Positions 3 through 16,418 of a stretch of DNA of 64,000 nucleotides are shown here, piece after piece. The stretch spans positions 15,235 through 79,234 of the forward strand of contig CAZTNI010000003.1 of the NCBI GenBank assembly GCA_964615415.1, read 5' to 3'. This DNA is from an uncultured Candidatus Saccharibacteria bacterium. GTDB lineage: Bacteria; Patescibacteriota; Minisyncoccia; Phycocordibacterales; SBAW01. How positions within the stretch are numbered: the first letter of the stretch is position 1; each line of letters starts with the position of its first letter. The notes under the pieces are model-generated. The model saw only the letters and a list, made by a program, of their open reading frames with translations. It had not been told where the DNA came from and did no database searches. The position numbers were made by a program, and so were the translations under genes.

Positions 3-686
3 GTGCAGGCAATTTCTACGTACCTTGGCAAGTGGGCACGATCCCGTGGGTTTGTGGGCAAACTTGAAATTATTCCTAATGCGGTAGACACGCAGAAGTT
101 TGCTGGAGAAAAAATTCCACATACAGGGACGGTGCTTATAACCACGTCTCGTTTGGTGCATAAAAACGCAATAGACGATGTTATTCGTGCGCTCCCGTTA
201 TTGCCAGAGGAAGTGACATTTAAGATACTCGGTAGTGGACCGCTCGAAGCTGACCTTAAAGTCCTCACTCAAAAACTTGGATTAGAGTCGCGAGTGGTGT
301 TTGTAGGAAATGTGCCAAACTTCGAGCTCCCACACCATTTACACGCTGCTGATATTTTTATCCGCCCATCGCGCTCCGAAGGTATGGGCAACTCGTTTGT
401 AGAAGCGTTTGCTGCGGAGATCCCAGTCATTGCGACACAGGAGGGAGGTATTGCAGACTTTCTTTTTGACCCTGTACGGAATGTAGATAAAAAACCGACA
501 GGGTTTGCTGTCGATACAAACTCTCCGCAACAAATTGCAGATGCGGTTACTAAGATTATTAGTAACCCAAAGTTGGTGCGGGAGGTTGTAGAGAATGCGC
601 GTGCTTTGGTAACCCAGAAGTACGATTGGAATTTGATCGCAAAAGACATGCGTGAGCGCGTATTTTTACCTTGTTTTAAGCCCTGA
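3..686 (+). CDS. Glycosyltransferase family 4 (GT-B fold), C-terminal fragment; 5' end lies outside the window
   Basis: ORF runs in frame from the window edge to TGA at 684-686. C-terminal GT4 donor-binding motif ...RSEGMGNSFVEAFAAEIPVIAT (E-x7-E). Confidence 0.7.
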   Translation: MQAISTYLGKWARSRGFVGKLEIIPNAVDTQKFAGEKIPHTGTVLITTSRLVHKNAIDDVIRALPLLPEEVTFKILGSGPLEADLKVLTQKLGLESRVVFVGNVPNFELPHHLHAADIFIRPSRSEGMGNSFVEAFAAEIPVIATQEGGIADFLFDPVRNVDKKPTGFAVDTNSPQQIADAVTKIISNPKLVREVVENARALVTQKYDWNLIAKDMRERVFLPCFKP

Positions 687-708: not shown

Positions 709-2679
709 ATGCGAGTACTTGTTCTCTCTACCGACTGGAACGTTTTTAATGAAGAAAGCGCGGTTGCGCGCCGTTTTCGTTTACAGGCTTCGACCATAGA
801 CCGGCTCGATGTGTTTGTACCACACGGACCTTCCCAAACGGTGCAGCTTGCAGGTAATGCAACGATGCGGGGCTTTGGACCTGGTCGTATACGTGGTGCG
901 GTGCGTATGTTTTTCTCGGCACGTAGTATTCCTCGCCCCGATGTTGTGTCAGTACAAGATCCGTTTCTTTTAGGCTTCCTCGGATGGATTATTGCGCGTG
1001 CGCGAGGTTCCCAATTGCATGTACAAGTGCACACTGATCTGTTCCATCAAAATTTTGCTGCACGTTCGCTCGGCAATCGCCTCAAAGTTCGTTTGGCAAA
1101 GTTTATGCTGCGTCGGGCAGATGGTGTACGTGTTGTATCAGAGCGCATTAAGCAATCTATGGAGCATCTCCATCTGCGTGCGCCTATCTCAGTGTTACCC
1201 GTATTTATCGATACGAAAGTTATTAAAGAAGCGCAGCCAATTGATAGACGTGTGCGCTACCCAGTATTTCAAAAAATCATTCTTGTAGTGTCGCGGTTAG
1301 AGCCAGAAAAAAATGTGTCGCTGGCTCTTAAGACATTTGCAGAAGTGCATGCAAAGGAACAACACGCTGGTCTTGTTATCCTTGGTGCTGGGTCGTTGCG
1401 CGGAGAGCTTGAGCAAGAGGTGCGTTCGCTTGGACTTGAAAAGTGGGTGGTGTTTGAAGGGGCCCAGAATCCATTTCCATTTTATAAGGCAGCAGATGCG
1501 TTACTACTCACGTCTCATTTTGAAGGGTACGGTATGGTTGTCGTTGAAGCCCTTACTGCTGGATGTCCTGTGGTGTCGCTCGATGTGGGCATTGCGGGCG
1601 AAGCTGGCGCTGTCGTTGTCGAGAAAAACAAGCTCGCAGAAGCTCTACTTCTTGTGGTACGTAAAGGCGCACGTGCACAATTGGCCTTTTCTCTCCCGTC
1701 AGAATCGGAATACCGTGACTTGTGGCGTACGCAAATAGTGCTTGGTGGAGCTTCTTCTACTTCTTTTTATACAAAACGAGATGCGGCAACCGATGTGCTT
1801 GTTGGATTTATCGGGCAAGGATTTATTGGTAAAAATTATGCCGATGACTTTGAGCGACGCGGGTTTAAAACGGTGCGCTATGCGCTCGAAGAGCCGTATC
1901 GGGCCAATAAAGACAAGATTAAAGACTGTGACATCGTATTTATTGCAGTCCCAACACCAACAACACCGGAAGGTTTTGATGACAGTATTGTGCGCAGCGC
2001 GGTGTCGTTGGTAGGAAAAGGGAAAACGGCAGTGATTAAATCAACAGTATTGCCGGGTACGACTGCAAGCATTCAGGCAGAGTACAAAGATGTTACCGTG
2101 CTGCACTCGCCAGAATTTTTAGCAGAAGTAACTGCCGCCTACGATGCTGCGCACCCGACTCGTAACATTGTCGGTATGCCGACTCCGTCAGAAGAGGCTC
2201 GTACAAAAGCGGAGCAAGTGTTGCGTGTGTTGCCCCAAGCTCCATACGAAATCGTGTGCTCCTCAAAAGAGTCTGAGCTTATTAAGTACATTAATAACAC
2301 AATGCTGACCCAGAAGGTGGTGTACGTAAACTTGATGTACGACCTTGCGAAGAAGCTTGGTACAGACTACGAAACGATTCGCGATGCGGTGGGGGCAGAT
2401 CCACGTATTGGACGCTCACACCTCGACCCAGTGCACAAAAGTGGGCACCCAGGAGCGCCTCTTGGTCGCGGCGCAGGAGGACATTGTTTTATTAAAGACT
2501 TTGAAGCGCTGCGTCGACTCTATAAACAAGAAGTAGGCGACCAGTATGGTTCGCGTCTTATGGATGCGATCGCAGAAGAAAATCTGTATCTGCTTCTGTC
2601 GAGTCAAAAAGATCGGGATTTGGTGGAAGGGGTGTACGGCAAGGACATCGAGAAAGACATTCTCGGTAAACTCTCATGA
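709..2679 (+). CDS. Fusion protein: N-terminal GT4 glycosyltransferase joined to a truncated UDP-glucose/GDP-mannose dehydrogenase-family domain (NAD-binding plus catalytic-Cys region, no C-terminal UDP-binding domain)
   Basis: 656-aa ORF. Residues 1-~330 carry GT4 motifs (EPEKNVSLALKTF..., HFEGYGMVVVEALTAGCPVV). Residues ~350-656 carry a Rossmann GFIGQGFIGKN motif, KSTVLPGTT, and the UDPGDH-type active site GAGGHCFIKD. The stop overlaps the next ATG (ATGA at 2676-2679). Confidence 0.7.
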   Translation: MRVLVLSTDWNVFNEESAVARRFRLQASTIDRLDVFVPHGPSQTVQLAGNATMRGFGPGRIRGAVRMFFSARSIPRPDVVSVQDPFLLGFLGWIIARARGSQLHVQVHTDLFHQNFAARSLGNRLKVRLAKFMLRRADGVRVVSERIKQSMEHLHLRAPISVLPVFIDTKVIKEAQPIDRRVRYPVFQKIILVVSRLEPEKNVSLALKTFAEVHAKEQHAGLVILGAGSLRGELEQEVRSLGLEKWVVFEGAQNPFPFYKAADALLLTSHFEGYGMVVVEALTAGCPVVSLDVGIAGEAGAVVVEKNKLAEALLLVVRKGARAQLAFSLPSESEYRDLWRTQIVLGGASSTSFYTKRDAATDVLVGFIGQGFIGKNYADDFERRGFKTVRYALEEPYRANKDKIKDCDIVFIAVPTPTTPEGFDDSIVRSAVSLVGKGKTAVIKSTVLPGTTASIQAEYKDVTVLHSPEFLAEVTAAYDAAHPTRNIVGMPTPSEEARTKAEQVLRVLPQAPYEIVCSSKESELIKYINNTMLTQKVVYVNLMYDLAKKLGTDYETIRDAVGADPRIGRSHLDPVHKSGHPGAPLGRGAGGHCFIKDFEALRRLYKQEVGDQYGSRLMDAIAEENLYLLLSSQKDRDLVEGVYGKDIEKDILGKLS

Positions 2680-3572
2680 AGCTCCTTATTTGCACACAGG
2701 CGGTCGACAAGCAGGACCCGGTACTCGGGTTCTTTCATCGCTGGATAGAAGAGTTTGCACAACACTGCGAAGAGGTAGTGGTCGTAGCGCAGCGCATTGG
2801 CGACTACTCGCTTCCTGCGAATGTAAAAGTCTATTCTTTGGGGAAAGAAAAAGGTTTGTCGCGACCGGCTCAAGCGGTACATTTTTTTAAACTCATCAGT
2901 AAAGAGCGAAACAATTACGACTCTGTGTTGGTGCATATGAGCCCCGAGTATGTGCTCGCGGGAGGTTTGTTGTGGCGCGTGTTCCGTAAAAGAATCGTCC
3001 TGTGGTATACCCACAAAGATGTGTCTTTGAGACTGCGAATCGCGACTGTATTAGCGGATCGCATTTTAACGGCGTCGAAAGAAAGTTTCCGCTTGCCAAG
3101 CACAAAAGTTCGGGTCATGGGACATGGTATTGATACACGGTTTTTTATTGCGGACACTTCAGTAGAACGCGAAGGTTTTCTCTTGTCGGTAGGAAGGCTT
3201 ATGAAAACAAAACGCCATGACCTTGCGCTCCAGGCTGCAAAAAAAATGGGAAAGCCGCTCCATATTGTCGGTGAAGGGCCCGAACGTGCTCATTTGGAAA
3301 AGATAGCCGACGAAATGGGAGTGGAAACGGTGTTTGTTGGAGGGGTGTCGCAAAGCAGGGTGCGAGACGAGTATCGAAAGGCAGAACTGCTACTGCATTT
3401 TAGCGAGACCGGAAGCCTCGACAAGGTAGTGCTCGAGGCGTTGGCGTGCGGGCTGCCTATCCGCACTACTGACCCGGCATTGCAGTTTCTTGAATCAAAA
3501 GATGCTTCATATGTTGCAGAACACCACTCGCTCTCGCGCTTAATTCCAGCTATTCTTAAGGAACTCGTATGA
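2676..3572 (+). CDS. Glycosyltransferase family 4
   Basis: 298 aa. E-x7-E motif FSETGSLDKVVLEALACGLP. Translationally coupled upstream and downstream by ATGA overlaps. Confidence 0.7.
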   Translation: MKLLICTQAVDKQDPVLGFFHRWIEEFAQHCEEVVVVAQRIGDYSLPANVKVYSLGKEKGLSRPAQAVHFFKLISKERNNYDSVLVHMSPEYVLAGGLLWRVFRKRIVLWYTHKDVSLRLRIATVLADRILTASKESFRLPSTKVRVMGHGIDTRFFIADTSVEREGFLLSVGRLMKTKRHDLALQAAKKMGKPLHIVGEGPERAHLEKIADEMGVETVFVGGVSQSRVRDEYRKAELLLHFSETGSLDKVVLEALACGLPIRTTDPALQFLESKDASYVAEHHSLSRLIPAILKELV

Positions 3573-4198
3573 AAGAACATACAGTACAGGTAGGGAAGGA
3601 ACATTACGGTTTCCGTCGATACTGCTATCCAGATCGATGGGCAAGTTATTATCACCAACTCGAAGAAATTGTTGCTACAAAACCGACGAGCGTACTCGAA
3701 ATAGGCGCTGGAGACGAGACAGTAAAGCGTTATATGCAAAAACTTGGGGTGGGGAAGTATGTCACGATGGACATTGCCGATGACTTGGCACCGGATATAA
3801 AAGGATCTATTACTGCTATCCCGCTAGAAGATAAATCCTTCGACACGGTGTGTGCATTTGAAGTGCTAGAGCATATTCCGTTTGAGGAAGTATCGCAAGC
3901 GCTTTCTGAGCTTGCGCGTGTTGCAAAAAAGTATGTGCTGGTCAGTGTGCCGCACTTCGGTCCCCCGGTACGCGTGCAGATTAAGATTCCTTTTTTGCCT
4001 CAACTGACACTGTTCAAAAAAATCCCATTCCCTAAGACGCATGTATTCAACGGGCAGCATTATTGGGAACTAGGAAAAAAAGGATATCCCGTGCGTCGAC
4101 TGCGTGAACTTATGCGCGACACATTTTCAATTGAGAAAGAGTTTGTGCCTGACGATAACGCCTACCACCACTTCTTTGTACTGCGTCCACTCGTATGA
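3569..4198 (+). CDS. Class I SAM-dependent methyltransferase
   Basis: 209 aa. SAM motif I VLEIGAGDETV and motif II/III region DTVCAFEVLEHIPFEE. Confidence 0.65.
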   Translation: MKEHTVQVGKEHYGFRRYCYPDRWASYYHQLEEIVATKPTSVLEIGAGDETVKRYMQKLGVGKYVTMDIADDLAPDIKGSITAIPLEDKSFDTVCAFEVLEHIPFEEVSQALSELARVAKKYVLVSVPHFGPPVRVQIKIPFLPQLTLFKKIPFPKTHVFNGQHYWELGKKGYPVRRLRELMRDTFSIEKEFVPDDNAYHHFFVLRPLV

Positions 4199-5136
4199 TA
4201 TTGAAACGCTTTCTTTCTCCGACTGCCTACCGCGAGCTGTGGTATTTCTACTATCACTGCATTGTGTATAAAAAGCCGCATGAATATCCGGCTTATTTTT
4301 ATAATCGATTCTTTATAAAAAAGAAGATACGTCGCGTCTCGCACCCTTTTGATCGTGCTCCAGACGATCTGTCGTACTCAATCCATCTCCTCTGTTCGCA
4401 TCGCGATGTAGATTTGCTGTTATGGTCCCTTGCTAGCTGGTATCGAGTAACGCCTGCTTCTGGAAAAGTATATATCCACGAAGATGGAAGTTTTACACCA
4501 GAAGATCGTGCAGTGGTGGCGCGACTCTTGCCGCATGCCCGAATAATTGATTTTGCCTGGGCGACAAGGGAAGCACACGATGTGTGGCTGAAAGATTTTC
4601 CAAAAGCGCGGGCACTTCGTGATAACTACGCGAAGCATGTGCTCATCGTCAAACTTATTGACCAATTATTTGTTAGCACTGCGCCGAAACGGCTTATTCT
4701 TGATACTGATTTGTTATGGTTTAACGAGCCAAAAGAGCTTCTTGAAGCAATCCAGCTCAATAAGGCATCTGTATTTCAGTACGGCGGCGAAATGCCCGAT
4801 CCGTTTCGTTTTGCTAATGGAGAGGTACTCGACTTGAAACTTCAAGTCCTTAACTCGGGCGTTGTGATATATGATCTGAAAAATTTTTCACTGAAAGATG
4901 TGGAAGAATATGCTGCAAAGATAGACCCAACTACGTTCCGGCACTTTGTAGAGCAGGTGGGGTACGGGTGGGTGCTTTCACGTTCTGGCGCGCCTATCAC
5001 AATGCTTTCTAAAGAACAGTACACGGTGTTTGGTGCCGTAACAAAAACGATTACCCTGAAGCACTTTACCGGACCACGTCGAGAAGATTTTTGGCGAGAA
5101 GGTGTGAGTGTGCTTGCTCCCGCATTACTCAAATGA
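4195..5136 (+). CDS. Hypothetical protein, possibly a GT-A-like glycosyltransferase (DXD-like motif LILDTDLLW)
   Basis: 313-aa ORF coupled to both neighbours. No strongly recognisable family. A DTD motif is preceded by hydrophobic beta-strand residues. Confidence 0.35.
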   Translation: MILKRFLSPTAYRELWYFYYHCIVYKKPHEYPAYFYNRFFIKKKIRRVSHPFDRAPDDLSYSIHLLCSHRDVDLLLWSLASWYRVTPASGKVYIHEDGSFTPEDRAVVARLLPHARIIDFAWATREAHDVWLKDFPKARALRDNYAKHVLIVKLIDQLFVSTAPKRLILDTDLLWFNEPKELLEAIQLNKASVFQYGGEMPDPFRFANGEVLDLKLQVLNSGVVIYDLKNFSLKDVEEYAAKIDPTTFRHFVEQVGYGWVLSRSGAPITMLSKEQYTVFGAVTKTITLKHFTGPRREDFWREGVSVLAPALLK

Positions 5137-6248
5137 ATATTGCATACGTAGCAAATATACGCATTCCGACAGAAAAAGCGCATGGGTATCAAATTATGCG
5201 CGTGTGTTCTGAACTTGCACGGCAGGGTCACCAAGTTTCGTTATATGTGCCTACACGCACAAATGCCATACCTGAGGATCCGTTTGCGTTTTATGGAGTA
5301 GAGAAAAATTTCTCGCTTATACTCGTGCCGTGTTTTGACTGGATTCGGTTTGTAAAAGTGTTTGGACCTCTTGCATTTCGTCTACAAATGATTTCTTTCG
5401 TGCGAGCGTTGCGCGCTATGCGTATCGCAAAAGACACGCTGGTGTACACTCGGGATGCAGAAGTAGTTTGGGCACTAGGAGAAGCAGGGTACTCGTGTGT
5501 CTATAATGCGCACAATTGGTCTACAGGAGGACGTGCTCAAAGGCTGCTGGCGCGGGTAAAAGGTGTGGTTTGTAATTCTGCAGGTACAGAGGAAGCAGTG
5601 CGTGCGGACATGTCGGTACCGACTGTTGTGGCTTCGAATGCGTCTGATTCAAATCCATATCTTGGCTACGATAAAACAATTTTACGAAAGGAATTAGGCT
5701 TGCCCCAAGATTCCTTTCTTGTTATGTATGCGGGGCATTTGTATGGATGGAAGGGCGCACACGTGCTTCTTGAGGCGGCAAAAGTAACTTCAGACATGAT
5801 GTTTGTATTCGTAGGCGGAACGATAGAAGATGTAGCATGGGCTCGTAAAGAATATGAAAACGTTTCAAACATACTCATTCTTGGTCATAGACCAAAAACG
5901 GAAGTACCTAAGTATCTTGCAGCGGCGGACGCGCTCGTGTTGCCTAATGTTGGTTCAACAGAAGAGTCAATAAAATTTACCTCGCCGCTTAAATTGTTTG
6001 AATATATTGCGTCAGGAGTACCGGTGGTCGCTTCTGACCTACCTTCAGTACGAAGTGTAATAGGAGAGAACGAAGTGTTCTTTTTTCCTCCTGGTAATGT
6101 GGAAGCGTTAGCGAATGTTCTTGGGTACATACAGACGCATAGCGTAGAGGCGCAGAGTGTGGCAACGCGAGCTCTGGAGGTGTCTGGGCGATATACCTGG
6201 GATGCGCATGTGCGTAACCTTATCACTTTTTTTCAATCCGTACTGTAA
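5133..6248 (+). CDS. Glycosyltransferase family 4
   Basis: ATG at 5133 overlaps the upstream TGA. N-terminus MNIAYVANIRIPTEKAHGYQI is typical of GT4. C-terminal E-x7-E region FEYIASGVPVVASDLPS. Confidence 0.7.
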   Translation: MNIAYVANIRIPTEKAHGYQIMRVCSELARQGHQVSLYVPTRTNAIPEDPFAFYGVEKNFSLILVPCFDWIRFVKVFGPLAFRLQMISFVRALRAMRIAKDTLVYTRDAEVVWALGEAGYSCVYNAHNWSTGGRAQRLLARVKGVVCNSAGTEEAVRADMSVPTVVASNASDSNPYLGYDKTILRKELGLPQDSFLVMYAGHLYGWKGAHVLLEAAKVTSDMMFVFVGGTIEDVAWARKEYENVSNILILGHRPKTEVPKYLAAADALVLPNVGSTEESIKFTSPLKLFEYIASGVPVVASDLPSVRSVIGENEVFFFPPGNVEALANVLGYIQTHSVEAQSVATRALEVSGRYTWDAHVRNLITFFQSVL

Positions 6249-6253
6249 AATCT

Positions 6254-6682
6254 ATGGGACGTATGTTTATACAAACTCTCCTGCGCTCAACGGTGATACG
6301 CTATGCAATTGCGGGCGCAACTGCCTCGATTCTTGATGTTGTCTTGCTCTACGTCTTTACTGAGTTTGCCGGAGTCTACTACCTTTTTTCAGCAGTGTTA
6401 GGTACCACCATTTCTTTTTTTGCACGATTCCTTTTGCAAAAACTGTTTGCGTTTCGAAATCGTTCGGTACGCGTGTTGCCAAGACAAATTGCATTATATG
6501 GGCTTCTATACATAGGAGCTACTCTTGCCACGTTAAGTCTGCTCTATGTATTTACTGAGGTGGTAGGGTGGTGGTACATCGCTTCGCAAGTTGCTGCTAT
6601 ACTAGCTGTTGCATCCGTAAGTTTTTTTATATACCGCTACGTTGTCTTTCCTGCCACTCATGCGCAACCTATTCAGCACTAA
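6254..6682 (+). CDS. GtrA-family small membrane protein (polyprenyl-phosphate-sugar translocation-associated)
   Basis: 142 aa with 4 predicted TM segments. GtrA signature IRYAIAGATASILDVVLLYVFTE...FFARFLLQKLFAFRN. Confidence 0.7.
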   Translation: MGRMFIQTLLRSTVIRYAIAGATASILDVVLLYVFTEFAGVYYLFSAVLGTTISFFARFLLQKLFAFRNRSVRVLPRQIALYGLLYIGATLATLSLLYVFTEVVGWWYIASQVAAILAVASVSFFIYRYVVFPATHAQPIQH

Positions 6683-8072
6683 CGTTTTTCGTATAAGTGT
6701 GGGCATCTTTTTGCTCGCGTTTCTTGCACGAGTTTTACTTTTTGCTATCGATTATCGTGCAAGTAATTATGACCTACGCGCCACTATTGTTGGTGACGAC
6801 GGGTACTATCAGATAACAGAAGGGATATTGTCGGGTAAGGGCTTTAGTGGAGACCCTACTCCTCCGTACGATCCAAACCCATTGCGTACCCCAGGGTATC
6901 CGTATTTTGCCGCTTTGTTGCTCGCAATAACGGGCTCGTACTGGGCGACGATTGTGGTGCAAATGCTTGTGGGGAGTGGTACCGCAGTACTTGCCTTCTT
7001 GCTTGGGCGACGTCTCCTTGGCTCACTTTCATGGTCTGCTGCTATAGGTGTGTTTATGGCACTTGAGCCGTACCATGTGCAGTTTTCTTTTATCTTCTAT
7101 ACAGAAACGTTATTTATTTTCTGTTTCTTGCTATTTGCTTGGCAGTTTGTGCGGTATATCGACCGCCCTTCATTGCAGAATATTTTTTTTGCAGGAGGAC
7201 TCTTGGGTATTGCAACACTTGTTAAAACCACGCCACAGTTTTTACCCCTCCTCCTTGTGCCGTTAGTGCTTTGGCATTTTCGTCGTAATCTGCGAGTAGG
7301 TATGGTACACGCAATGGTGTTTGGTGCAGTATTTCTACTCGTGCTCGCGCCATGGATGTACCGTAACTACCAAACCTTTGGTGTTGTTGGCATGACCGCA
7401 CAGCCAGCCTATAACCTTATTATCTACCTTGTGCCTTCAGTATTGGCTGTAGAGGGAGGGTATCCGATAGGAGAAAGCACCTTTGTTAAAGACAACAACA
7501 TTGATGAAAATGACATTACGCTCGCCACTGCTCAGCGATACAAAGATCAAGCGATTGATATTCTTACGCAGCATCCGGTTGGTATATTCAAAGTTACCCT
7601 TATTAGCATATTCACATTCTTTGCGCATGACGGTATGCTCACCGTCTTGCAGCATGCGGGCTATATACCCGCTACAAAACTTTCTCAACCTGCAGCAGTG
7701 TTGCTCGTAACTAATCCAGGACTGTTGGTTAAAGAAGTCGCGGCCCGATTAATGGGGCCAGAGGGTTTAATTGTTTTTTGGCGCTTGGTAAACCTTGCTA
7801 TTGGAGTGTTGTTTGTAGTGGGGGCGTGCATGGTTGTGTTTCGAAAAAAACACGCAGCGGTATGGATCTTCAGTCTAGTCCTGGTTGCGTATTTTGTTGC
7901 TACTACGCCAATAAATGGTCTCGGTGTCAATGCTCGGTTCCGTATGCCGGTTGAGCCGTTTATATTGGCTGTGGCAGCTTTGCCGGCCATTGTGGTATGG
8001 CGACGCTTAAGGCATACTGGGGGGCGCCATATACCGCATGAACAAACTCTCGATAGTCATCCCTTGCTATAA
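6660..8072 (+). CDS. Polytopic membrane glycosyltransferase with GT-C fold (GT39/PMT- or ArnT/GT83-like)
   Basis: ATG at 6660 (the track start at 6642 is TTG). At least 11 hydrophobic segments. The N-terminal loop DYRASNYDL...[18 protein letters not shown]...PGYPYF resembles the PMT_2/ArnT first periplasmic loop. It is flanked by GtrA and a Dpm1-like GT2. Confidence 0.55.
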
Positions 8073-9540
8073 CGAACGCGCGACCGTAGTAGAGCTATTG
8101 CAAAAAGTACTTGCTGTCTCTTTGCCGAATGGTTGGGAGAAAGAAGTTATTGTGGTGGATGATGCATCTCAAGACGGCACGCGAGATATCCTTGTTGCTG
8201 CGAATCTGCCTGTAAAACTTTTTTTACAGGGGGAAAATGCCGGAAAAGGCGCTGCCTTGCGTCGAGGTTTTGCAGAAGTAACAGGCACGCATGTTCTTAT
8301 TCAAGATGCGGATCTTGAATATGATCCCCAAGACATTCCTGCACTCTTGCGCGCACTGACGCCACAGACACAAGTGGTGTATGGATCGCGCAATTTGCAT
8401 GTACACAAGCGCAAAGGGTTTCTTATTCCACGCATAGGAGTGTGGTTTATAACCAAGCTCATAAATACTCTCTACTGGGTACGACTTACCGATGTGTGGA
8501 CCTGTTACAAGCTATTCCCAGCAAAAGAGGCCTACTTATTTCAAGCAGGGAAGTTCGATTCAGAGCTCCTGTTTACTGCGGCACTTTTGCGTAAAAAATA
8601 TAAAATAGCTGAAGTTCCTATCGCACATTATCCTCGCGATGCGGCGCATGGTAAAAAAATTCGCTATCGCGACGGTGTGTCAGCAATTATCAAAATAGTT
8701 CTCGATTTCCTTGCACATATGCGCTCGCCTGAGGCGTACACAGCGCAAGATGTTTCGAAGTTTCTTATTGCAAAGTATCCAAAAGATGCGCAAGGAAGAG
8801 TGCTTGCGATGCCTGCTGCCTCACTTCAATCCTTTGATGATGAACATCAGAGCGGCATTAACTGGTTGAAGTCTTTTTTAAAGCAGTTTCCGACCCTTTA
8901 CTACGCCATTTGGCATGTGTTCTGTCCGGCATTGATGGTTGTGAACGGCCCAAAACGTATTTTTACATATAGAGAACGCGGAGGGCTCCTCCTTGATGTG
9001 GGTTCTGGTCCTGAGCGTATAGGCAAAGAATTTATAAACATAGACGTAGTGCCGTTTCCGCAAGTTGATGTGGTGGCAGATGCACACAGATTGCCATTTA
9101 AAGATGGAGTGGCAGATGCAGTGGTAAGTGAGTCTGTGTTGGAACACGTTGCGGATGCCCAGGCGGTTGCAAATGAAATGGTGCGGGTGCTCAAGCCGGG
9201 CGGCATACTGTACACGAGTATTCCGTTTATCCACCCGTTCCATGCGTCGCCAGACGATTTTAATCGTCTTACGGTAAGCGGTCTTAAGCACGTGTTCCGT
9301 GACCTGGAGATTATTGAAAGCGGGGTGCGGTCAGGCCCGTGGAGTGCATTTCTTTTATTCTTTGCGTACTGGCTCGGGATCCTATTTTCATTTGGGTCTG
9401 AAAAAGTGGCACCATTCTTGGCGCATATCTTCATGCTTATACTCGGACCGCTCAAGTTTCTTGATATATTGTTTGTATACTTGCCTGGTACGGAAGCGGT
9501 TGCAGCTCATGTGTATGTCATTGGGCGGAAGCGAATGTAA
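8038..9540 (+). CDS. GT2 polyprenyl-phosphate sugar synthase (Dpm1/GtrB-like) fused to a C-terminal class I SAM methyltransferase domain
   Basis: N-terminus [14 protein letters not shown]...[12 protein letters not shown]...[10 protein letters not shown]-terminal half [12 protein letters not shown]...[25 protein letters not shown] (Methyltransf_11-like), followed by hydrophobic segments. Confidence 0.65.
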
Positions 9541-10485
9541 ATGAAAAAAGTAGTATTGCTGGAACACGATGGCGGCGAGCTCGCTAATCAGTTGTGGAAT
9601 TACATAAGCGTGTATGCGTATGCGCTTGAGCGTGGCTACACGTGCGAAAATTGGTCGTTTTTTGAATATCCTGATCATTTTGCCCGTAAACAAGAAGGGC
9701 GAATAATCAGATATCTTTTTGTGCCGTGGTTTAGAGGTTTTACGAAGCGCCGGAGTGCGGTGCGCCGCCGTGTGGCCCGCAAGTTGTACAAACTACTTGT
9801 CTCTAACCCTATGCATGTTCTTTCTCGTCGGGTTGTATATTCGACCGAAGTTGCGGGTGCTGCGTATTACTTGCCGCCAACGGGAGAGGCAAGCGCGCAT
9901 TTGTCCCGTTTGGAAAACTCAAAAGGTCCGATATATCTCGCACAAGTAAGTGGCGCGGTATATCGCAACCCAGACGGTATCATGAAGCATCGAGAAAAAA
10001 TTATAGAAGCGTTTCGTCCTGCTTCAGACATTACATCTACTGTAACGAAAACGACTGAGGCGCTTCGTGCTCGATATACGCACGTGGTGGGTGTGCATAT
10101 TCGTCAGGGAGACTACACAACATTTAAGGGAGGAAAATATTTTATTGAACAACGGCGCGTGCGCCAGATTTTGGATCAATATTTGCTTGAACGGAACCTC
10201 TCGGCGAATGAGGCCTGCTTTTTCATCGCGTCTGATGGGAAAATTGATGAATCATTATTTAATGGTCTTGCTATTCATGTAAGTAAAGCTAGTGCTGGAG
10301 AAGATCTTTTTACCCTTGCAGCGTGCGATGCAGTTATTGGCTCAGACTCTACCTTTGGTCACTTTGCTGCCTACTACGGCAATGTGCCCCATATTGTTAT
10401 GAAAAAAGAGCAAATGGATTGGGGATACTATCAGGGTAAAAATACCTATTTTGTAAATACATACCTCACTATTATGCAGTTCTAG
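9541..10485 (+). CDS. GT11-like glycosyltransferase (putative alpha-1,2-fucosyltransferase)
   Basis: N-terminus VVLLEHDGGELANQLWNY resembles the GT11 GGLGNQMFQY motif. HIRQGDY matches the GT11 HxRRGDY motif. ATG immediately follows the upstream stop. Confidence 0.45.
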   Translation: MKKVVLLEHDGGELANQLWNYISVYAYALERGYTCENWSFFEYPDHFARKQEGRIIRYLFVPWFRGFTKRRSAVRRRVARKLYKLLVSNPMHVLSRRVVYSTEVAGAAYYLPPTGEASAHLSRLENSKGPIYLAQVSGAVYRNPDGIMKHREKIIEAFRPASDITSTVTKTTEALRARYTHVVGVHIRQGDYTTFKGGKYFIEQRRVRQILDQYLLERNLSANEACFFIASDGKIDESLFNGLAIHVSKASAGEDLFTLAACDAVIGSDSTFGHFAAYYGNVPHIVMKKEQMDWGYYQGKNTYFVNTYLTIMQF

Positions 10486-12659
10486 GTTCCAAGTGAGTAC
10501 CCATACAATCTATACGTTCCTGGAGTAAGAAGAACAAGTGAGAAGTCTGTTATGTAAGGAGACAATATGTAGGAATATAGTTGAGATAGATCGACCGTAA
10601 TCACGTATCGTCCTGCCTGGCTCACTGTCTGAGGACTGAATTGGTCTATGCGGACAAGTCCTTGGGGTTGAGGCGAGGCGAATGAGTCCTCGTACGAAAT
10701 ACCTATAAATGTTTTTTCTGTCCCTGAGGGAATTTCTATATCAAGAGTTATATACAGAGGAGGTGTGTGAGCAGAAGAAAAAGCAAGAGGGATGCGAGTG
10801 GTTCCATCGCTTGTGTATGTCAAAGGTTCAGTATCAAACTTCTCTGTGGTACTGAAATCAGACACTACAACTACTGATTTTAAATATATATTATGTAGGG
10901 CGGAATTTTGTGAGAGAGCTTGTATAAAAGAAGGGTGGATATTCTTGGAGTCTATAAATGAAGAAATAGGTATGAATTGTATATGTGGTTCGAGCTTTAA
11001 AAACGGACGGTATATAGATGCAGGTGTGCCTGGAAGAGATGGGTTAATATAATTGCCCTGCAAGTCTGGAACACGAATTATTTCGTTTGAGGTGCTCGCT
11101 AGTGCTGCTAGTGCAGGCGCGAGTGTGTGCTGCAGAAGCTCGACACCTTTTTTGCTTTCGAGTACATCCGCAACATTTTGCGTGTTATAGAACGTATAGA
11201 GATGCTGTGCACCGAACACACATACTATGCCCGCACAGAGTGCTAGTGTTCGTGCCCGGCGCGTCTCAGGAGATGTGTTTGTAACGCTGGTCCATATCGC
11301 AATTGCGACAATACACATAAACCAATAAAACGGCATGATGATTTGTTGTGTGGGGAAATATGCTGCGGGGCGTATGTTTGGTCTTTGAATAGCGGTAAGC
11401 AGTGCTGTACCAAGAAGTAATGCTAAGCAAAATACTATAAAGAACCGAGTTTGGCGGTCGCCTCTGCGGAGAACGTACCACACAACAAACACAAACATCA
11501 AAAACGATATGCCCATTAGTGCGTGCCAAAGGGGAAGGAAGTGTAGGAAGCGTGGTTGATCTATAAGAAAACCAACTCCCGGAACAATAAGCTGTGCCAC
11601 GATTCCGGCGGTGAGCAGATCGTATAAATTTTTTAAAATGCTCAGTATGTTGAAGTTATTTGCTCCTGAAGAAAGAGGTGTGTAACCGGTTTGGAGGTAC
11701 GTGTACCAACCGTATATGACCATGAGTGCTAGTGTGGCAAAAACACTTGCGCCTATGGCTAGGTGGGATCGGAGATATGCAAGAAAGGTTTTTCCCTGAA
11801 ATCCAATACTGTGCAGCAGTGTAAAAAGCACATACGCTCCGGGGATCCAAATGCCTGCAATGTCTACAAACGTGGCCCCCGTAAGACATATCCAAGAGAG
11901 TCCTAAGAAAAGGACACGGTGTGACCGTAAGGTGGCAGTACTCCACGCAAGATATAAAAGAAGTGATGCAAGGAAAAGCGCCAGAATGCGCAAATACATG
12001 GAAAGCATGTAGAATCCTGCCAAAAAGTCGCTCAGCAGTACTGAAGTACCAAGTACGAGAATAAAAACAGCGCTAGTGAGGAATCCAAACTTCAGTTTAC
12101 GCAACAGAAGATGAAAGAAAAAAAGCGTGCTGGCGGCGAGTACTAGCTGAAACATGTTGTAGGGAACAGGGTTAGTTCCAAAAAGATTGTAAAACACAGC
12201 AACCTCTACCCGATACAAAGGAGCTGCGTGTCCGTTTTGGGGGAGAGCAATGAGGTAGGGAAGAGCATGTTCGGTGTTAGCTGCTACGACATGGAAGTCG
12301 TCAGAATGAAAGTACCCATAGAGCACTCCGCTCAAATTGCATATGCTTACAATAAGAAGGCAGATACAAAATATAATTACTTGCTGTACGTAGGAAGGAA
12401 GCCTGTTGTACACTGACCTACTTTTTCTGATGGTAGATAAGAGCGTTTCTCTAAAAGGAGGGAAGTGGGCGTAGAGTAAAAAAGTAAACGCAGCAATGCA
12501 AAAAAACAGCCCTGTTTCATACGAGGTTTTTGAGAAGCCTTCTACATACAAGGCGGCAAGAGGGCTCTCTCCGCTCAAAGAGTAGGAAGATATAAAGGAC
12601 GCAACCAAAAAGCATATACCTGCACTTGCTGCGAAAAAAAGTCCCAGGACGGTAGCCAT
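10482..12659 (-). CDS. Large polytopic membrane protein (~13 TM) with a ~240-aa C-terminal extracytoplasmic domain; possibly a GT-C-type transferase or polymerase
   Basis: 725-aa ORF on the minus strand, ATG at 12657-12659. Extensive hydrophobic N-terminal 480 aa and a Ser/Thr/Pro-rich soluble C-terminus. Confidence 0.5.
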   Translation of the reverse strand: MATVLGLFFAASAGICFLVASFISSYSLSGESPLAALYVEGFSKTSYETGLFFCIAAFTFLLYAHFPPFRETLLSTIRKSRSVYNRLPSYVQQVIIFCICLLIVSICNLSGVLYGYFHSDDFHVVAANTEHALPYLIALPQNGHAAPLYRVEVAVFYNLFGTNPVPYNMFQLVLAASTLFFFHLLLRKLKFGFLTSAVFILVLGTSVLLSDFLAGFYMLSMYLRILALFLASLLLYLAWSTATLRSHRVLFLGLSWICLTGATFVDIAGIWIPGAYVLFTLLHSIGFQGKTFLAYLRSHLAIGASVFATLALMVIYGWYTYLQTGYTPLSSGANNFNILSILKNLYDLLTAGIVAQLIVPGVGFLIDQPRFLHFLPLWHALMGISFLMFVFVVWYVLRRGDRQTRFFIVFCLALLLGTALLTAIQRPNIRPAAYFPTQQIIMPFYWFMCIVAIAIWTSVTNTSPETRRARTLALCAGIVCVFGAQHLYTFYNTQNVADVLESKKGVELLQHTLAPALAALASTSNEIIRVPDLQGNYINPSLPGTPASIYRPFLKLEPHIQFIPISSFIDSKNIHPSFIQALSQNSALHNIYLKSVVVVSDFSTTEKFDTEPLTYTSDGTTRIPLAFSSAHTPPLYITLDIEIPSGTEKTFIGISYEDSFASPQPQGLVRIDQFSPQTVSQAGRYVITVDLSQLYSYILSPYITDFSLVLLTPGTYRLYGYSLGT

Positions 12660-15092: not shown

Positions 15093-16418
15093 CTACTTTT
15101 CTGGAGCGCCTACTTGAATTACTTTAACCCAATCTTGTTTCGGAATATAGCGCCACGGGTCGATAACCACCGATCCCTTAGGGAATTGCATCTTTGCAAA
15201 TTCAGGGTGCTTGGTGCCAATGAAAAAGACGCTCGGCTCCCATTCCGGAGTTTCGCCACCATCGACAAACGGGTCATAGATAGTTACGTCGTGGCCCATC
15301 TCCTCGATAATATTTTTAAGAAGAATAGAAGGGCTGCCGGTCGTTATGTTTGTTTCAGGCTTAAATGCCTTCCCAAGAATTACTTTCGGAAGGTTGCGAT
15401 GTTGGAGCATTAATGTAGCAAGCCACTCTGTCTGTTTTTCGCGCGCGGTCATCAAGGCGTCAAAAAAGTCGTACGAGAGGTCAAGTTTACGCGAGAGCCA
15501 CGACATAGCGATGTTGTCGCGTGGGTGGCAGCCGCCGCCATCGCCCATACCTGCGCCGAGGTACTTTGGGCTGATAAGGCGCGTGGTAGCGAGCTTCATT
15601 GCGTCGGTAATAGCATCTACGTCCATAGTGCCACCTAGTTTGTGACAGATTTCCATCATCACGTTTGCGTACACAATCTTCATGCCAATAAACGTGTTGT
15701 AGCCAACTTTAATCAGTTCGGCGTTCTCGAGAGTGGTGCGGTAAAACGGTGCATTGTGGAGTGTTTTATAAAACTTCTCCATCACCTTTGCGGCGTTATT
15801 ATCAACAACACCAAAGAGTACAAATTCTGGGTTAAGGAAGTCGCGCATGGTGGTGCCCATGGCAATAAAGAATGGGTTGTAGCAGAGTTTTACGTGCTTG
15901 TTGATGACAGGGAGGATCTGGTTTTTGATGGTGCCCGGAAGAACGGTAGAGATAATCACCACAATTTTATCCTCGCCGGTGCGAGCGATAGCGGCCGAGA
16001 GCTCTTTCATGCCCGACACGAGATGAGCATAGTTAAAGTCGACACGCTCCTGCGGGATACGCGTCGTGCCTTCAAACTTCTCTTCGTGTGGGGTTTGGAT
16101 AGGAACAAAAATAATTTCAGAATGTTTTACAACTTCGTCAATAGAGCCGAACTTGAGGTTGCTGTTGTGGAGGTATGGCTCGATAGGTTCCTCGCCGTCG
16201 GGGCCTGTTTCGCGATAGTTAATCGTCTTCTTCTGCATGCGCGCCGGGTTGATGTCGTAGCCCATAACATCGTGACCTTTCATGTCGATAGCAAGGGCGC
16301 AGGGAAGGCCGAGTTTTCCTATGCCGATAAAGCCTACACGCATTTTGTCAGTATTAGCAGCCGTTTGAGGGGCTTGAGAAGGAAGAACTGGAGCTTCAGG
16401 GATGTTGAGTTTTGCCAT
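15093..16418 (-). CDS. Nucleotide-sugar dehydrogenase (UDP-glucose/GDP-mannose/UDP-ManNAc dehydrogenase family)
   Basis: Rossmann motif MRVGFIGIGKLG after a 25-aa N-terminal extension (alternative start near 16343). Catalytic-Cys motif GGGCHPRDN. Full three-domain length, 441 aa. Confidence 0.8.
   Translation of the reverse strand: MAKLNIPEAPVLPSQAPQTAANTDKMRVGFIGIGKLGLPCALAIDMKGHDVMGYDINPARMQKKTINYRETGPDGEEPIEPYLHNSNLKFGSIDEVVKHSEIIFVPIQTPHEEKFEGTTRIPQERVDFNYAHLVSGMKELSAAIARTGEDKIVVIISTVLPGTIKNQILPVINKHVKLCYNPFFIAMGTTMRDFLNPEFVLFGVVDNNAAKVMEKFYKTLHNAPFYRTTLENAELIKVGYNTFIGMKIVYANVMMEICHKLGGTMDVDAITDAMKLATTRLISPKYLGAGMGDGGGCHPRDNIAMSWLSRKLDLSYDFFDALMTAREKQTEWLATLMLQHRNLPKVILGKAFKPETNITTGSPSILLKNIIEEMGHDVTIYDPFVDGGETPEWEPSVFFIGTKHPEFAKMQFPKGSVVIDPWRYIPKQDWVKVIQVGAPEK

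What the first reader, a model, noticed from the sequence alone, without database searches (positions are those of the whole stretch)
709..2679. In-frame fusion of a GT4 glycosyltransferase with a truncated UDP-sugar dehydrogenase module
Residues ~350-656 carry the UDPGDH-family NAD-binding Rossmann domain and the catalytic region with the active-site cysteine motif GAGGHCFIKD. The protein ends ~60 aa later, so it lacks the C-terminal UDP-binding domain. It is fused downstream of a complete GT4. Two stand-alone full-length dehydrogenases are encoded elsewhere in the island. The fusion may channel an oxidised sugar to the transferase, or act as a regulatory or pseudo-enzyme domain. It is an unusual architecture.
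Basis: seen in the sequence. Interest (0 to 1): 0.55.

Follow-up and report, generated by a model that had tools for sequence, protein, structure and literature searches.

The report
Glycosyltransferase fused to minimal sugar dehydrogenase
This is a real, widely conserved gene of ultra-small (Patescibacteria) bacteria that joins a sugar-transferring enzyme to a stripped-down relative of UDP-glucose dehydrogenase, which keeps its whole catalytic machinery but lacks the domain that normally holds the UDP handle of the substrate, and that stripped-down enzyme proves to be a large protein family for which I found no description.

Summary
ORF 709..2679 (+) encodes a 656-aa protein made of a complete GT4 glycosyltransferase, a disordered linker, and a UGDH-family NAD-binding plus central catalytic domain (motif GAGGHCFIKD). 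It has no C-terminal UDP-binding domain.

It is not a frameshift artefact. At least 108 distinct protein clusters (90% identity level, ~616-675 aa, 44-76% identical) carry the same fusion in Patescibacteria.

"Truncated" is misleading. The ~290-aa module belongs to a large family of two-domain UGDH-like proteins, mostly stand-alone (270-300 aa). Their catalytic Cys, Lys, Asn, Asp and Glu and the glycine-rich loop are conserved.

The fusion is the joined form of a conserved cassette: GT4-A, short dehydrogenase, GT-B. Other lineages keep three separate genes or fuse the dehydrogenase to GT-B instead.

Most likely it is an active dehydrogenase that makes a uronic acid for the flanking transferases. 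It probably acts on the nucleotide sugar, because UDP-sugar 4-epimerase-like genes are recurrent direct neighbours. How it binds substrate without the UDP domain is unknown.

A pseudo-enzyme role is unlikely. I rate it a new variant of a known kind, of moderate interest.

The parts
709..2679 (+). Whole fusion gene (656 aa plus stop): GT4 glycosyltransferase, linker, two-domain UGDH-like dehydrogenase.
   Evidence: ORF list. Pfam. A 100% identical protein and more than 100 fused homolog clusters.
709..1743 (+). GT4 (retaining GT-B) half, aa 1-345. It contains R196, E198 and K201, and the E-x7-E motif E272...E280 (EGYGMVVVE at nt 1522-1548).
   Evidence: Pfam Glyco_transf_4 and Glycos_transf_1. 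Foldseek best matches are BshA and MshA. R196, E198, K201 and E280 are invariant and E272 is at least 90% conserved. Motif translated.
1747..1785 (+). Inter-module linker, aa 347-359, predicted disordered.
   Evidence: It is the only segment with pLDDT below 50 in the full-length AlphaFold2 model. A pTM of 0.55 means the relative orientation of the two halves is not defined.
1795..2202 (+). Shortened NAD(P)-binding Rossmann domain, aa 363-498. Glycine-rich loop GFIGQGFIG at nt 1804-1830, KST motif (T446), PEFLAE motif (E469, E473). It lacks about 33 aa after strand beta2 compared with full-length family members.
   Evidence: Pfam match covers only profile positions 71-183. Alignment to the window's full-length dehydrogenases. 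Invariant G366, G369, G371, G374, T446 and E469.
2263..2577 (+). Central helical catalytic and dimerisation domain, aa 519-623. It carries K526, N530, R566, an 11-aa family-specific insertion (PVHKSGHPGAPLGR), R587, and the motif GAGGHCFIKD (nt 2470-2499) with Cys593 and Asp597.
   Evidence: Pfam UDPG_MGDP_dh. Alignments. Motif translated.
2578..2676 (+). Family-specific helical tail, aa 624-656 (ENLYLLLSSQKDRDLVEGVYGKD...). It ends where the first strand of the missing UDP-binding domain would begin: V642-Y643-G644 aligns with (I/M)LG of the full-length enzymes. N625, L628, L629, K634, D635, Y643 and G644 are invariant in the fusions.
   Evidence: Alignments. Translation. Helices predicted at 612-631, 636-643 and 647-654.
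3..686 (+). Upstream GT4 gene, C-terminal part only because it is probably cut by the window edge. Orthologs (40-60% identical, about 370-435 aa) recur near the cassette in related loci.
   Evidence: Pfam. BLAST against 84 loci.
2676..3572 (+). GT-B: the downstream GT4-like glycosyltransferase (298 aa). Its ATG overlaps the fusion's TGA stop (ATGA at 2676-2679). Orthologs directly follow the dehydrogenase in fused and unfused loci, and are themselves fused to the dehydrogenase in P0123 and P0130.
   Evidence: Sequence. Pfam. Synteny. BLASTP E 4e-43 and 5e-57.
3569..4198 (+). Class I methyltransferase following GT-B. The same gene order occurs in the unfused locus L070.
   Evidence: Pfam.

Best explanation
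The gene encodes a genuine bifunctional enzyme of a cell-surface glycan pathway in a Patescibacteria (Parcubacteria/Kaiserbacteria-like) bacterium.

Its C-terminal half is a catalytically competent member of a large two-domain branch of the UDP-glucose/GDP-mannose dehydrogenase family, for which I found no description. Using NAD(P)+ and the conserved Cys593 / Lys526 / Asp597 / Glu469 set, it would oxidise the C6 alcohol of a hexose in two steps, through thiohemiacetal and thioester intermediates, to a uronic acid.

The most likely substrate is a nucleotide sugar, a UDP-hexose or UDP-N-acetylhexosamine. The resulting nucleotide-uronic acid would pass to the tethered GT4 half and to the translationally coupled GT-B, which add it to a lipid-linked glycan. 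Fusion would ensure equal amounts and proximity of the two activities.

Shown: the fusion, its conservation, retention of all catalytic residues, absence of the UDP-binding domain, and the conserved GT4-A / dehydrogenase / GT-B cassette. Inferred: enzymatic activity, uronic-acid product, nucleotide-sugar substrate, and channelling.
For: 1. **The fusion is real.** At least 108 clusters of ~616-675 aa with the same domain set, 44-76% identical, come from many independent assemblies.
2. **Purifying selection on catalysis.** In 66 fusions the following are invariant: G366, G369, G371, G374, T446, E469, K526, N530, C593, K596 and D597. In 42 stand-alone homologs down to 31% identity, the equivalents of C593, K526, K596, S445, T446 and E469 are invariant, and those of N530, D597 and R587 are at least 90% conserved. 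These positions map to human UGDH Thr131, Glu161, Lys220, Asn224, Cys276 and Asp280, whose roles are established (PMC3265891).
3. **The module is an autonomous fold.** AlphaFold2 gives pLDDT 91.8 and pTM 0.89. Its best structural matches are UGDH N-terminal plus central domains.
4. **It exists independently.** About 65 of 80 species-representative loci encode it alone as ~280-300 aa proteins. An exhaustive search gave 141 representatives at E <= 1e-30, nearly all short.
5. **Functional linkage to transferases.** GT4 genes neighbour it in 54 of 78 loci. Split loci have a GT4-A ortholog directly upstream and a GT-B ortholog directly downstream. Alternative fusions join the dehydrogenase to GT-B or to a GT2.
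6. **Nucleotide-sugar level.** UDP-sugar 4-epimerase-like SDR genes lie directly beside stand-alone members in 11 or more loci. Their best solved relatives are UDP-hexose and UDP-HexNAc 4-epimerases (4zrm, WbpP, WbgU) or 5u4q and UDP-glucuronate 4-epimerase. SDR fusions also exist (P0215). This mirrors the WbpO/WbpP and TviB/TviC dehydrogenase-epimerase pairs (my own knowledge).
7. **A carboxylate product.** AsnB-type amidotransferases recur nearby in 7 loci, which fits a carboxylate product.
Against: - In characterised UGDHs the C-terminal Rossmann domain binds the UDP moiety and positions the sugar (PMC3184952). That domain is entirely absent here. No separately encoded copy lies in the window or in the 84 loci examined. 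How a nucleotide sugar would be held is therefore unexplained.
- The window already encodes two full-length dehydrogenases, so this module is not needed as a generic UGDH and may have a different substrate.
- SDR neighbours in fused loci are heterogeneous: one is CDP-tyvelose-2-epimerase-like and one has no close solved relative.
- The protein scores below the NCBIfam family cut-off: TIGR03026 131.3 bits against 189.8.
- No family member has been characterised biochemically as far as I could find.
- NAD versus NADP preference is unresolved. The canonical Asp after strand beta2 aligns with Ala392.
Confidence: 0.55

Rival explanations
1. Oxidation after transfer. The GT4 half first transfers a neutral hexose onto the lipid-linked or glycan acceptor. 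The tethered dehydrogenase then oxidises C6 of that bound sugar. This would explain why a UDP-binding domain is dispensable.
For: - The UDP-binding domain is missing throughout the family.
- The dehydrogenase is physically fused to transferases of three kinds: GT4-A, GT-B and GT2.
- GtrA-like membrane proteins, which belong to a polyprenyl-phosphate-sugar context, lie directly downstream in 6 stand-alone loci.
- The window already has two conventional nucleotide-sugar dehydrogenases.
Against: - About 35 of the 80 loci have no GT4 detected by BLAST with the window's three GT queries within the 6-kb flanks, so the enzyme does not need a tethered transferase.
- Its commonest non-transferase partners are nucleotide-sugar epimerases.
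- I know of no precedent for a UGDH-family enzyme acting on a polymer-bound or lipid-bound sugar (my own knowledge).
- The loop that wraps UDP-glucose in human UGDH (residues 265-280, PMC3184952) is retained and even enlarged, with conserved His576 and Arg587.
Confidence: 0.2
2. Composite active site. The nucleotide-binding Rossmann domain of the fused or neighbouring GT-B-fold transferase stands in for the lost UDP-binding domain, so dehydrogenase and transferase share one bound UDP-sugar.
For: - Both the lost domain and the GT-B C-terminal domain are Rossmann-like UDP binders (PMC3184952; Foldseek matches to UDP-bound BshA).
- There is tight genetic coupling and repeated independent fusion.
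Against: - AlphaFold2 gives no defined inter-module geometry: pTM 0.55 and a disordered linker.
- Fusions occur in both orders and with unrelated transferase folds, GT2 as well as GT4, which argues against one fixed interface.
- Many stand-alone members have no adjacent transferase.
- A tandem dehydrogenase-dehydrogenase protein exists with no transferase at all (P0110).
Confidence: 0.07
3. Different substrate class. The short dehydrogenases oxidise a small non-nucleotide alcohol, for example a sugar phosphate, a free sugar or a polyol, to the acid. The product then enters glycan synthesis by another route.
For: - Loss of the UDP domain.
- The two-domain layout and ~290-aa size match beta-hydroxyacid/6-phosphogluconate-type dehydrogenases. 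Some JGI annotations call these proteins '3-hydroxyisobutyrate dehydrogenase-like', and there is a weak NAD_binding_2 hit at E 0.056.
Against: - The full UGDH-type covalent-catalysis set, including the GGxCxxKD motif, is retained.
- The listed fold matches are all UGDHs.
- The genomic context is almost entirely nucleotide-sugar enzymes and transferases.
Confidence: 0.1
4. Pseudo-enzyme or regulatory domain. The module only binds NAD(H), or acts as a scaffold or dimerisation domain for the transferase.
For: - The substrate-binding domain is missing.
- At least one related fusion (P0161) has a degenerate glycine loop and a Lys-to-Gln change in the CxxKD motif.
Against: - The nucleophile, the base, the oxyanion residues and the hydrolysis residue are invariant across fusions that are only 44% identical, and across stand-alone homologs down to 31% identity.
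- Most family members are stand-alone proteins with nothing to regulate in cis.
Confidence: 0.05
5. Assembly or sequencing artefact. Two adjacent genes were merged by a frameshift or by loss of a stop codon in this assembly.
For: In unfused relatives the two genes abut or overlap by a few bases (gaps of -27 to +20 bp in L018, L020, L035, L067, L070 and L084). A single error could therefore mimic a fusion.
Against: - At least 108 distinct clusters from NCBI, JGI, ENA and Logan assemblies carry the same continuous ORF with a conserved-length linker.
- A 100% identical protein is on record (P0001).
- There is no long homopolymer run at the junction.
Confidence: 0.01

Closest known systems
UDP-glucose 6-dehydrogenase and the wider nucleotide-sugar dehydrogenase family (UGDH/HasB/Ugd, GDP-mannose dehydrogenase AlgD, TviB, WbpO; Pfam PF03721 + PF00984 + PF03720; NCBIfam TIGR03026)
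   Same: Homologous Rossmann and central helical domains. The same catalytic positions are present: Cys in GGxCxxKD, Lys/Asn on the long helix, Glu of PEFL, Thr of KST. The genomic pairing with 4-epimerases and glycosyltransferases is also the same.
   Different: - No C-terminal UDP-binding domain.
- About 33 aa deleted after strand beta2 of the Rossmann fold.
- An 11-aa insertion and a conserved Arg immediately before the catalytic motif.
- A conserved helical tail (N...LL...S-KD...VYG).
- It scores below the TIGR03026 cut-off.
- Total module length is about 290 aa, against 388-494 aa.
Retaining GT4 glycosyltransferases of the BshA / MshA / PimA type
   Same: GT-B fold. The best fold matches are BshA and MshA. 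The E-x7-E motif and the Arg/Lys diphosphate-binding pair are conserved.
   Different: Donor and acceptor are unknown. The N-terminus lacks the usual glycine-rich start and instead has a conserved S-T-D-W-N-V-F...S-A-V-A-R-R motif. It is covalently joined to a dehydrogenase.
Bifunctional nucleotide-sugar enzymes such as ArnA (formyltransferase + UDP-glucuronate decarboxylase), and gene pairs such as WbpO/WbpP and TviB/TviC
   Same: The logic is the same: consecutive steps of a sugar-modification pathway are joined or placed side by side. Uronic-acid chemistry is linked to downstream use.
   Different: The pair of activities here is dehydrogenase plus transferase. I found no description of this combination in the searchable literature.
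Two-domain beta-hydroxyacid / 6-phosphogluconate-type dehydrogenases (HIBADH-like)
   Same: Overall size and layout: a Rossmann domain plus an all-helical domain, about 290 aa. Some automatic annotations use this name.
   Different: Sequence and fold are clearly closer to UGDH. A cysteine nucleophile motif is present, which HIBADH-type enzymes lack (my own knowledge).

Membership tests
UDP-glucose/GDP-mannose dehydrogenase family (nucleotide-sugar dehydrogenases) | N-terminal NAD-binding Rossmann domain with a GxGxxG loop | tested here: met
   PF03721, E 3.8e-16, but only profile positions 71-183 are matched. The GFIGQGFIG loop has invariant glycines. About 33 aa after beta2 are missing.
UDP-glucose/GDP-mannose dehydrogenase family (nucleotide-sugar dehydrogenases) | Central helical domain carrying the catalytic Lys and Asn | tested here: met
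   PF00984, E 1.2e-16, aa 521-623. K526 and N530 are invariant.
UDP-glucose/GDP-mannose dehydrogenase family (nucleotide-sugar dehydrogenases) | Catalytic cysteine nucleophile and Asp in the GGxCxxKD motif, plus the Glu of PEFL for thioester hydrolysis | tested here: met
   GAGGHCFIKD at aa 588-597. C593, D597 and E469 are invariant. Their roles are taken from PMC3265891.
UDP-glucose/GDP-mannose dehydrogenase family (nucleotide-sugar dehydrogenases) | C-terminal Rossmann-like UDP/GDP-binding domain (PF03720) | tested here: not met
   There is no PF03720 hit. The protein ends at the position of that domain's first strand. No separate copy lies nearby. None of 10 further family members scanned has one.
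UDP-glucose/GDP-mannose dehydrogenase family (nucleotide-sugar dehydrogenases) | Score above the curated family threshold (NCBIfam TIGR03026, 189.8 bits) | tested here: not met
   131.3 bits. Stand-alone members score 103-138 bits.
UDP-glucose/GDP-mannose dehydrogenase family (nucleotide-sugar dehydrogenases) | NAD+-dependent four-electron oxidation of a nucleotide sugar to the uronic acid | not testable with these tools
   This needs an enzyme assay.
GT4 retaining glycosyltransferases (GT-B fold) | Two Rossmann-like domains matching the GT4 N-terminal and C-terminal profiles | tested here: met
   PF13439, PF13579, PF00534 and PF13692 are all above their cut-offs. Foldseek matches BshA and MshA with TM-score about 0.60-0.65 normalised to the target.
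GT4 retaining glycosyltransferases (GT-B fold) | E-x7-E motif and the Arg/Lys pair that binds the donor diphosphate | tested here: met
   E272-x7-E280. R196, K201 and E280 are invariant and E272 is at least 90% conserved. The assignment of their roles rests on my knowledge of PimA and WaaG.
   The module aligns end to end with stand-alone members at 31-60% identity. R587, N625 and K634 are conserved. The same truncated Pfam pattern appears in 10 of 10 further members.
Beta-hydroxyacid / 6-phosphogluconate dehydrogenase family | A significant match to NAD_binding_2 (PF03446) and its helical partner domain | tested here: not met
   PF03446 scores E 0.056, 13.9 bits against a cut-off of 21.

The most novel reading that the evidence does not exclude
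The short two-domain UGDH-like proteins are a distinct enzyme class that has dispensed with nucleotide recognition. They would oxidise C6 of a sugar that is already attached to a lipid carrier or a growing glycan, acting in cis with the fused transferase. This would be the first case of uronic-acid formation after glycosyl transfer by a UGDH-family enzyme. If they instead still use UDP-sugars, they show that the 'UDP-binding domain' is dispensable for nucleotide-sugar recognition, which would itself revise the textbook domain assignment.
Probability: 0.2. Interest if true: 0.8.

Novelty: new variant of a known kind. Interest (0 to 1): 0.5.

Why it matters
- **Enzymology.** UDP-glucose dehydrogenases are a textbook three-domain family, and the third domain is held responsible for binding the nucleotide. 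Here a large, conserved, evidently selected branch works without it: 141 representatives of 50%-identity clusters at E <= 1e-30, and more than 500 loci in species-representative genomes. Finding out how it binds substrate would either reveal a new recognition mode for nucleotide sugars or a new point in glycan assembly at which uronic acids are made.
- **Pathway definition.** The fusions to flanking transferases give a ready-made hypothesis for the pathway, namely a GT4-A / dehydrogenase / GT-B cassette.
- **Organism biology.** The family is concentrated in Patescibacteria, whose surface glycans are essentially uncharacterised and probably matter for their episymbiotic lifestyle.
- **Annotation.** These proteins are currently named inconsistently: 'glycosyltransferase', 'UDP-glucose 6-dehydrogenase', '3-hydroxyisobutyrate dehydrogenase-like'.

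Tried and rejected
- **Frameshift or assembly artefact:** rejected on conservation.
- **Another Rossmann family:** rejected.
- **A UDP-binding domain encoded separately nearby:** tblastn and blastp with the C-domains of the window's two full-length enzymes found nothing beyond those enzymes and one ordinary full-length dehydrogenase in L083. BLAST sensitivity is limited, although the two C-domains do find each other at 24% identity.
- **Evolutionary intermediates:** I looked for a short N-domain combined with a C-domain present. None turned up among 10 longer or atypical hits.
- **'All neighbouring SDRs are UDP-glucuronate 4-epimerases':** rejected as a generalisation. SDRs in fused loci are heterogeneous. 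Only the directly adjacent SDRs of stand-alone genes are consistently 4-epimerase-like.
- **Myxococcaceae context:** the ORFs I chose in the high-GC locus L062 gave no Pfam hits, probably because mechanical ORF calling picked the wrong frames. I did not pursue it.
  - The first, too-diverse alignment could not seed the genome scan.
  - The source contig of the identical protein P0001 could not be retrieved.
  - Model coordinates are not exposed, so distances from K634 or R587 to C593 could not be measured.
  - Cluster look-up gave no useful names for stand-alone members.
- **Literature:** four searches found no description of the fusion or of a two-domain UGDH-like family.
Full report
**1. Observation**

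The ORF at 709..2679 (+) is present exactly as described: 656 aa with an ATG start. Pfam assigns the following:
- aa ~35-314 to the two GT4 domains (Glyco_transf_4 / Glyco_trans_4_4 and Glycos_transf_1 / Glyco_trans_1_4);
- aa 401-498 to UDPG_MGDP_dh_N;
- aa 521-623 to the UDPG_MGDP_dh central domain;
- no hit to the C-terminal UDP-binding domain.

NCBIfam's generic nucleotide-sugar dehydrogenase model matches aa 401-623 but stays below its cut-off, at 131.3 bits against 189.8. The motif GAGGHCFIKD is at nt 2470-2499. The window also holds two three-domain dehydrogenases at 15093-16418(-) and 16495-17805(-), within a ~34-kb island full of glycosyltransferases, sugar-modifying enzymes and a Wzy_C+TPR protein. 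Every factual element of the finding is therefore confirmed.

**2. The fusion is real and conserved**

A search with the full protein returned one 100% identical protein. It also returned at least 108 further clusters at the 90%-identity level, ~616-675 aa long, with the same Pfam domain set and 94-100% query coverage, at 44-76% identity. They come from NCBI, JGI, ENA and Logan assemblies, and where named they are Patescibacteria, Parcubacteria, Kaiserbacteria or Paceibacterota. A sequencing error cannot explain this. The junction DNA has no long homopolymer run.

AlphaFold2 models both halves confidently (mean pLDDT 85.7). It leaves aa 347-359 disordered and gives a pTM of only 0.55, which means two well-folded modules on a flexible tether with no defined mutual orientation.

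**3. The dehydrogenase half is a member of a large family, not a local truncation**

An exhaustive HMMER search with aa 345-656 found 141 representatives of 50%-identity clusters at E <= 1e-30. Most are proteins of 270-300 aa that match the module end to end.

A scan of one genome per species returned at least 600 pattern matches, of which 531 were confirmed relatives. Among the 80 loci fetched, about 9 carry the GT4 fusion and about 65 encode the module alone. The hosts are many Patescibacteria lineages, plus several Myxococcaceae/Myxococcales MAGs.

Alignment with the window's own full-length enzymes shows what distinguishes the family:
- about 33 residues are missing after strand beta2 of the Rossmann fold;
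- 11 residues are inserted just before the catalytic motif;
- the chain ends at V642-Y643-G644, which aligns with the (I/M)LG that opens the first strand of the C-terminal domain. This looks like a vestige of a three-domain ancestor.

Ten further atypical or longer members all show the same shortened N-domain and no C-domain. The isolated module is predicted as a compact fold (pLDDT 91.8, pTM 0.89). The solved structures listed as its closest matches are all UDP-glucose dehydrogenases, with TM-score 0.67-0.76 normalised to the query.

**4. Catalytic competence**

Invariant positions in 66 fusions:
- Dehydrogenase half: G366, G369, G371, G374, T446, E469, K526, N530, R587, C593, K596, D597, N625, K634 and D635.
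- GT4 half: R196, E198, K201 and E280, with E272 at least 90% conserved. E272 and E280 form the E-x7-E motif.

Across 42 stand-alone homologs down to 31% identity:
- the equivalents of C593, K526, K596, S445, T446, E469 and N625 are invariant;
- those of N530, D597, R587 and K634 are at least 90% conserved.

Using the human UGDH sequence, my own residue count agrees with the mutant names in PDB titles (A104L, A136M) and with K129 and N292 as cited in the papers. The correspondences are:

| Human UGDH | Window protein |
|---|---|
| Thr131 | T446 |
| Glu161 | E469 |
| Lys220 | K526 |
| Asn224 | N530 |
| Arg260 | R566 |
| Cys276 | C593 |
| Asp280 | D597 |

In the human enzyme Cys276 is the covalent nucleophile, Lys220 the base and oxyanion stabiliser, Asp280 activates the cysteine, and Glu161 hydrolyses the thioester (PMC3265891). 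Retention of this whole set under strong divergence argues for an active enzyme and against a pseudo-enzyme.

[quoted passage not shown] The latter loop is retained here and enlarged, with conserved His576 and Arg587. No separately encoded C-domain was found in the window or in 84 related loci.

**5. Genomic logic**

In fused loci the gene is preceded by a GT4 and followed directly by a GT4-like gene, called GT-B here. In the window, GT-B's ATG overlaps the fusion's stop codon (ATGA at 2676-2679).

In many unfused loci an ortholog-like GT4, 30-40% identical to the window's GT4 half over its full length, lies directly upstream of the stand-alone dehydrogenase on the same strand, with gaps of -27 to about 150 bp. 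In most of these loci a GT-B ortholog lies downstream, directly adjacent (a gap of 0-7 bp, or a 7-bp overlap in L080) in L016, L070, L074, L080 and L084. Other examples of the upstream arrangement are L018, L020, L035 and L067. L070 even continues with the same methyltransferase and GT4 genes as the window, and ends with a MurJ-like flippase.

The two 'reversed' fusions, P0123 and P0130, are dehydrogenase-GT-B proteins: their GT parts match the window's GT-B at E 4e-43 and 5e-57, not its GT4 half. So one conserved cassette, GT4-A / short dehydrogenase / GT-B, has been fused on either side in different lineages. This is strong evidence that the three proteins work together.

The module is also found fused to a GT2, to SDR epimerase/dehydratase domains, to a D-Ala-D-Ala ligase, to APS kinase, and to a second copy of itself.

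**6. Which substrate?**

After GT4 genes (54 of 78 loci), the commonest neighbours are SDR nucleotide-sugar enzymes (30 loci). Then come GtrA-like membrane proteins, GT2, AsnB-type amidotransferases, Wzy_C+TPR proteins and Ddl.

SDRs directly adjacent to stand-alone dehydrogenases fall into two types:
- **About 300 aa, downstream.** Its best solved relatives are UDP-hexose and UDP-HexNAc 4-epimerases: 4zrm, WbpP and WbgU.
- **About 335 aa, upstream.** Its best relatives are 5u4q (302 bits) and the UDP-glucuronic acid 4-epimerase structures 6zl6/6zld/6zll (186 bits). Genuine dTDP-glucose dehydratases score 118 bits or less. The identity of 6ZLD and 6ZLL was confirmed in PMC11519531.

A 6-dehydrogenase next to a 4-epimerase is the arrangement of WbpO/WbpP and TviB/TviC, which act on UDP-sugars (my own knowledge). 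AsnB-type amidotransferases nearby fit a carboxylate product.

This tips the balance towards oxidation at the nucleotide-sugar level, but the evidence is circumstantial. SDRs in fused loci are heterogeneous, and the means of nucleotide binding is unexplained. The alternative remains open: the tethered dehydrogenase may oxidise the sugar after the GT4 has transferred it. A composite active site shared with the transferase is less likely, because the fusions occur in both orders and with different transferase folds, AlphaFold2 finds no fixed interface, and many members stand alone.

**7. Comparison with known systems, and novelty**

The protein works like a UGDH-family dehydrogenase joined to a BshA/MshA-like retaining GT4. 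It fails two membership criteria of the canonical nucleotide-sugar dehydrogenase family: the C-terminal domain and the curated score threshold. It is best described as a member of a distinct two-domain branch.

Four full-text literature searches found no description of that branch or of the fusion. Database names are inconsistent automatic labels.

I rate it a new variant of a known kind. It is common in nature and only apparently rare. Its interest lies in the enzymological question it raises rather than in the fusion as such.

**8. Verdict**

- Observation: confirmed.
- Interpretation: partly supported. The fusion and the missing domain are right. 'Truncated', 'unusual' and 'pseudo-enzyme' need revision.
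- Best explanation: an active minimal dehydrogenase that supplies a uronic acid to the flanking transferases, probably at the nucleotide-sugar level.
- Confidence: about 0.55 for the whole statement, and higher (about 0.75) for the narrower claim 'genuine bifunctional protein with an active dehydrogenase'.
- Interest: 0.5.

Noticed in passing
window 46525-63900 (+): A giant ORF of 5,791 aa with LVIVD repeats (E 5.5e-48, around aa 2293-2332) and a C-terminal bacterial surface Ig-like domain, and otherwise no Pfam matches. It is probably a huge cell-surface protein and a possible target of the adjacent glycosylation island.
   Followed up: partly
window 32122-34401 (+); also L039 1645-3960: A Wzy_C (O-antigen ligase / O-oligosaccharyltransferase-like) domain fused to TPR repeats. 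The same family recurs near the short dehydrogenase in 7 unfused loci (cluster C5). This hints that the glycan is transferred to a protein or polymer outside the membrane.
   Followed up: partly
P0110 (606 aa, NCBI; no locus fetched): A protein made of two tandem copies of the short dehydrogenase module and nothing else. Both copies keep the RGAGGHCF(P/I)KD motif. It may mimic the family's central-domain dimer in a single chain.
   Followed up: partly
P0126 (626 aa); L071 6913-7878 and two other loci: The short dehydrogenase is fused to a D-Ala-D-Ala ligase that just passes the NCBIfam Ddl cut-off (247.9 bits against 243). A Ddl gene also lies directly downstream of it in 3 loci. This is an unexplained link to peptidoglycan precursor synthesis.
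   Followed up: partly
L042, L046, L047, L049, L053, L062 (match at about 6001-6852 in most): MAGs labelled Myxococcaceae or Myxococcales encode the short dehydrogenase at 57-58% identity to the Patescibacteria module. This suggests horizontal transfer or mis-binning. The neighbouring ORFs I picked gave no Pfam hits.
   Followed up: partly
P0161 (605 aa), DH part aa 1-290: In this dehydrogenase-SDR fusion the dehydrogenase half looks degenerate: the glycine loop reads GLIGPDRNS, PEFL has become PDFS, and CxxKD has become CLLQD. It may be a genuine pseudo-enzyme derivative within the family.
   Followed up: no
window 4195-5136 (+) and 10482-12659 (-): Two sizeable ORFs (313 aa and 725 aa) inside the glycan island have no Pfam or NCBIfam match.
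   Followed up: no
window 15093-16418 (-): One of the two 'full-length' dehydrogenases is itself atypical. TIGR03026 scores 187.8 bits, just under the 189.8 cut-off. Its C-domain hit covers only profile positions 2-49 (29.6 bits against a cut-off of 30). It also has a 25-aa N-terminal extension.
   Followed up: no
window 8038-9540 (+): Another in-frame two-enzyme fusion in the same island: GT2 glycosyltransferase (aa 5-125) plus a class I methyltransferase (aa ~306-397).
   Followed up: no
window 1789-1800: An in-frame GTG (Val361) lies three codons upstream of Val365 and Gly366, the start of the GFIGQGFIG loop. That is about where stand-alone homologs begin. It could in principle allow separate translation of the dehydrogenase module. 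I did not test for a ribosome-binding site.
   Followed up: no
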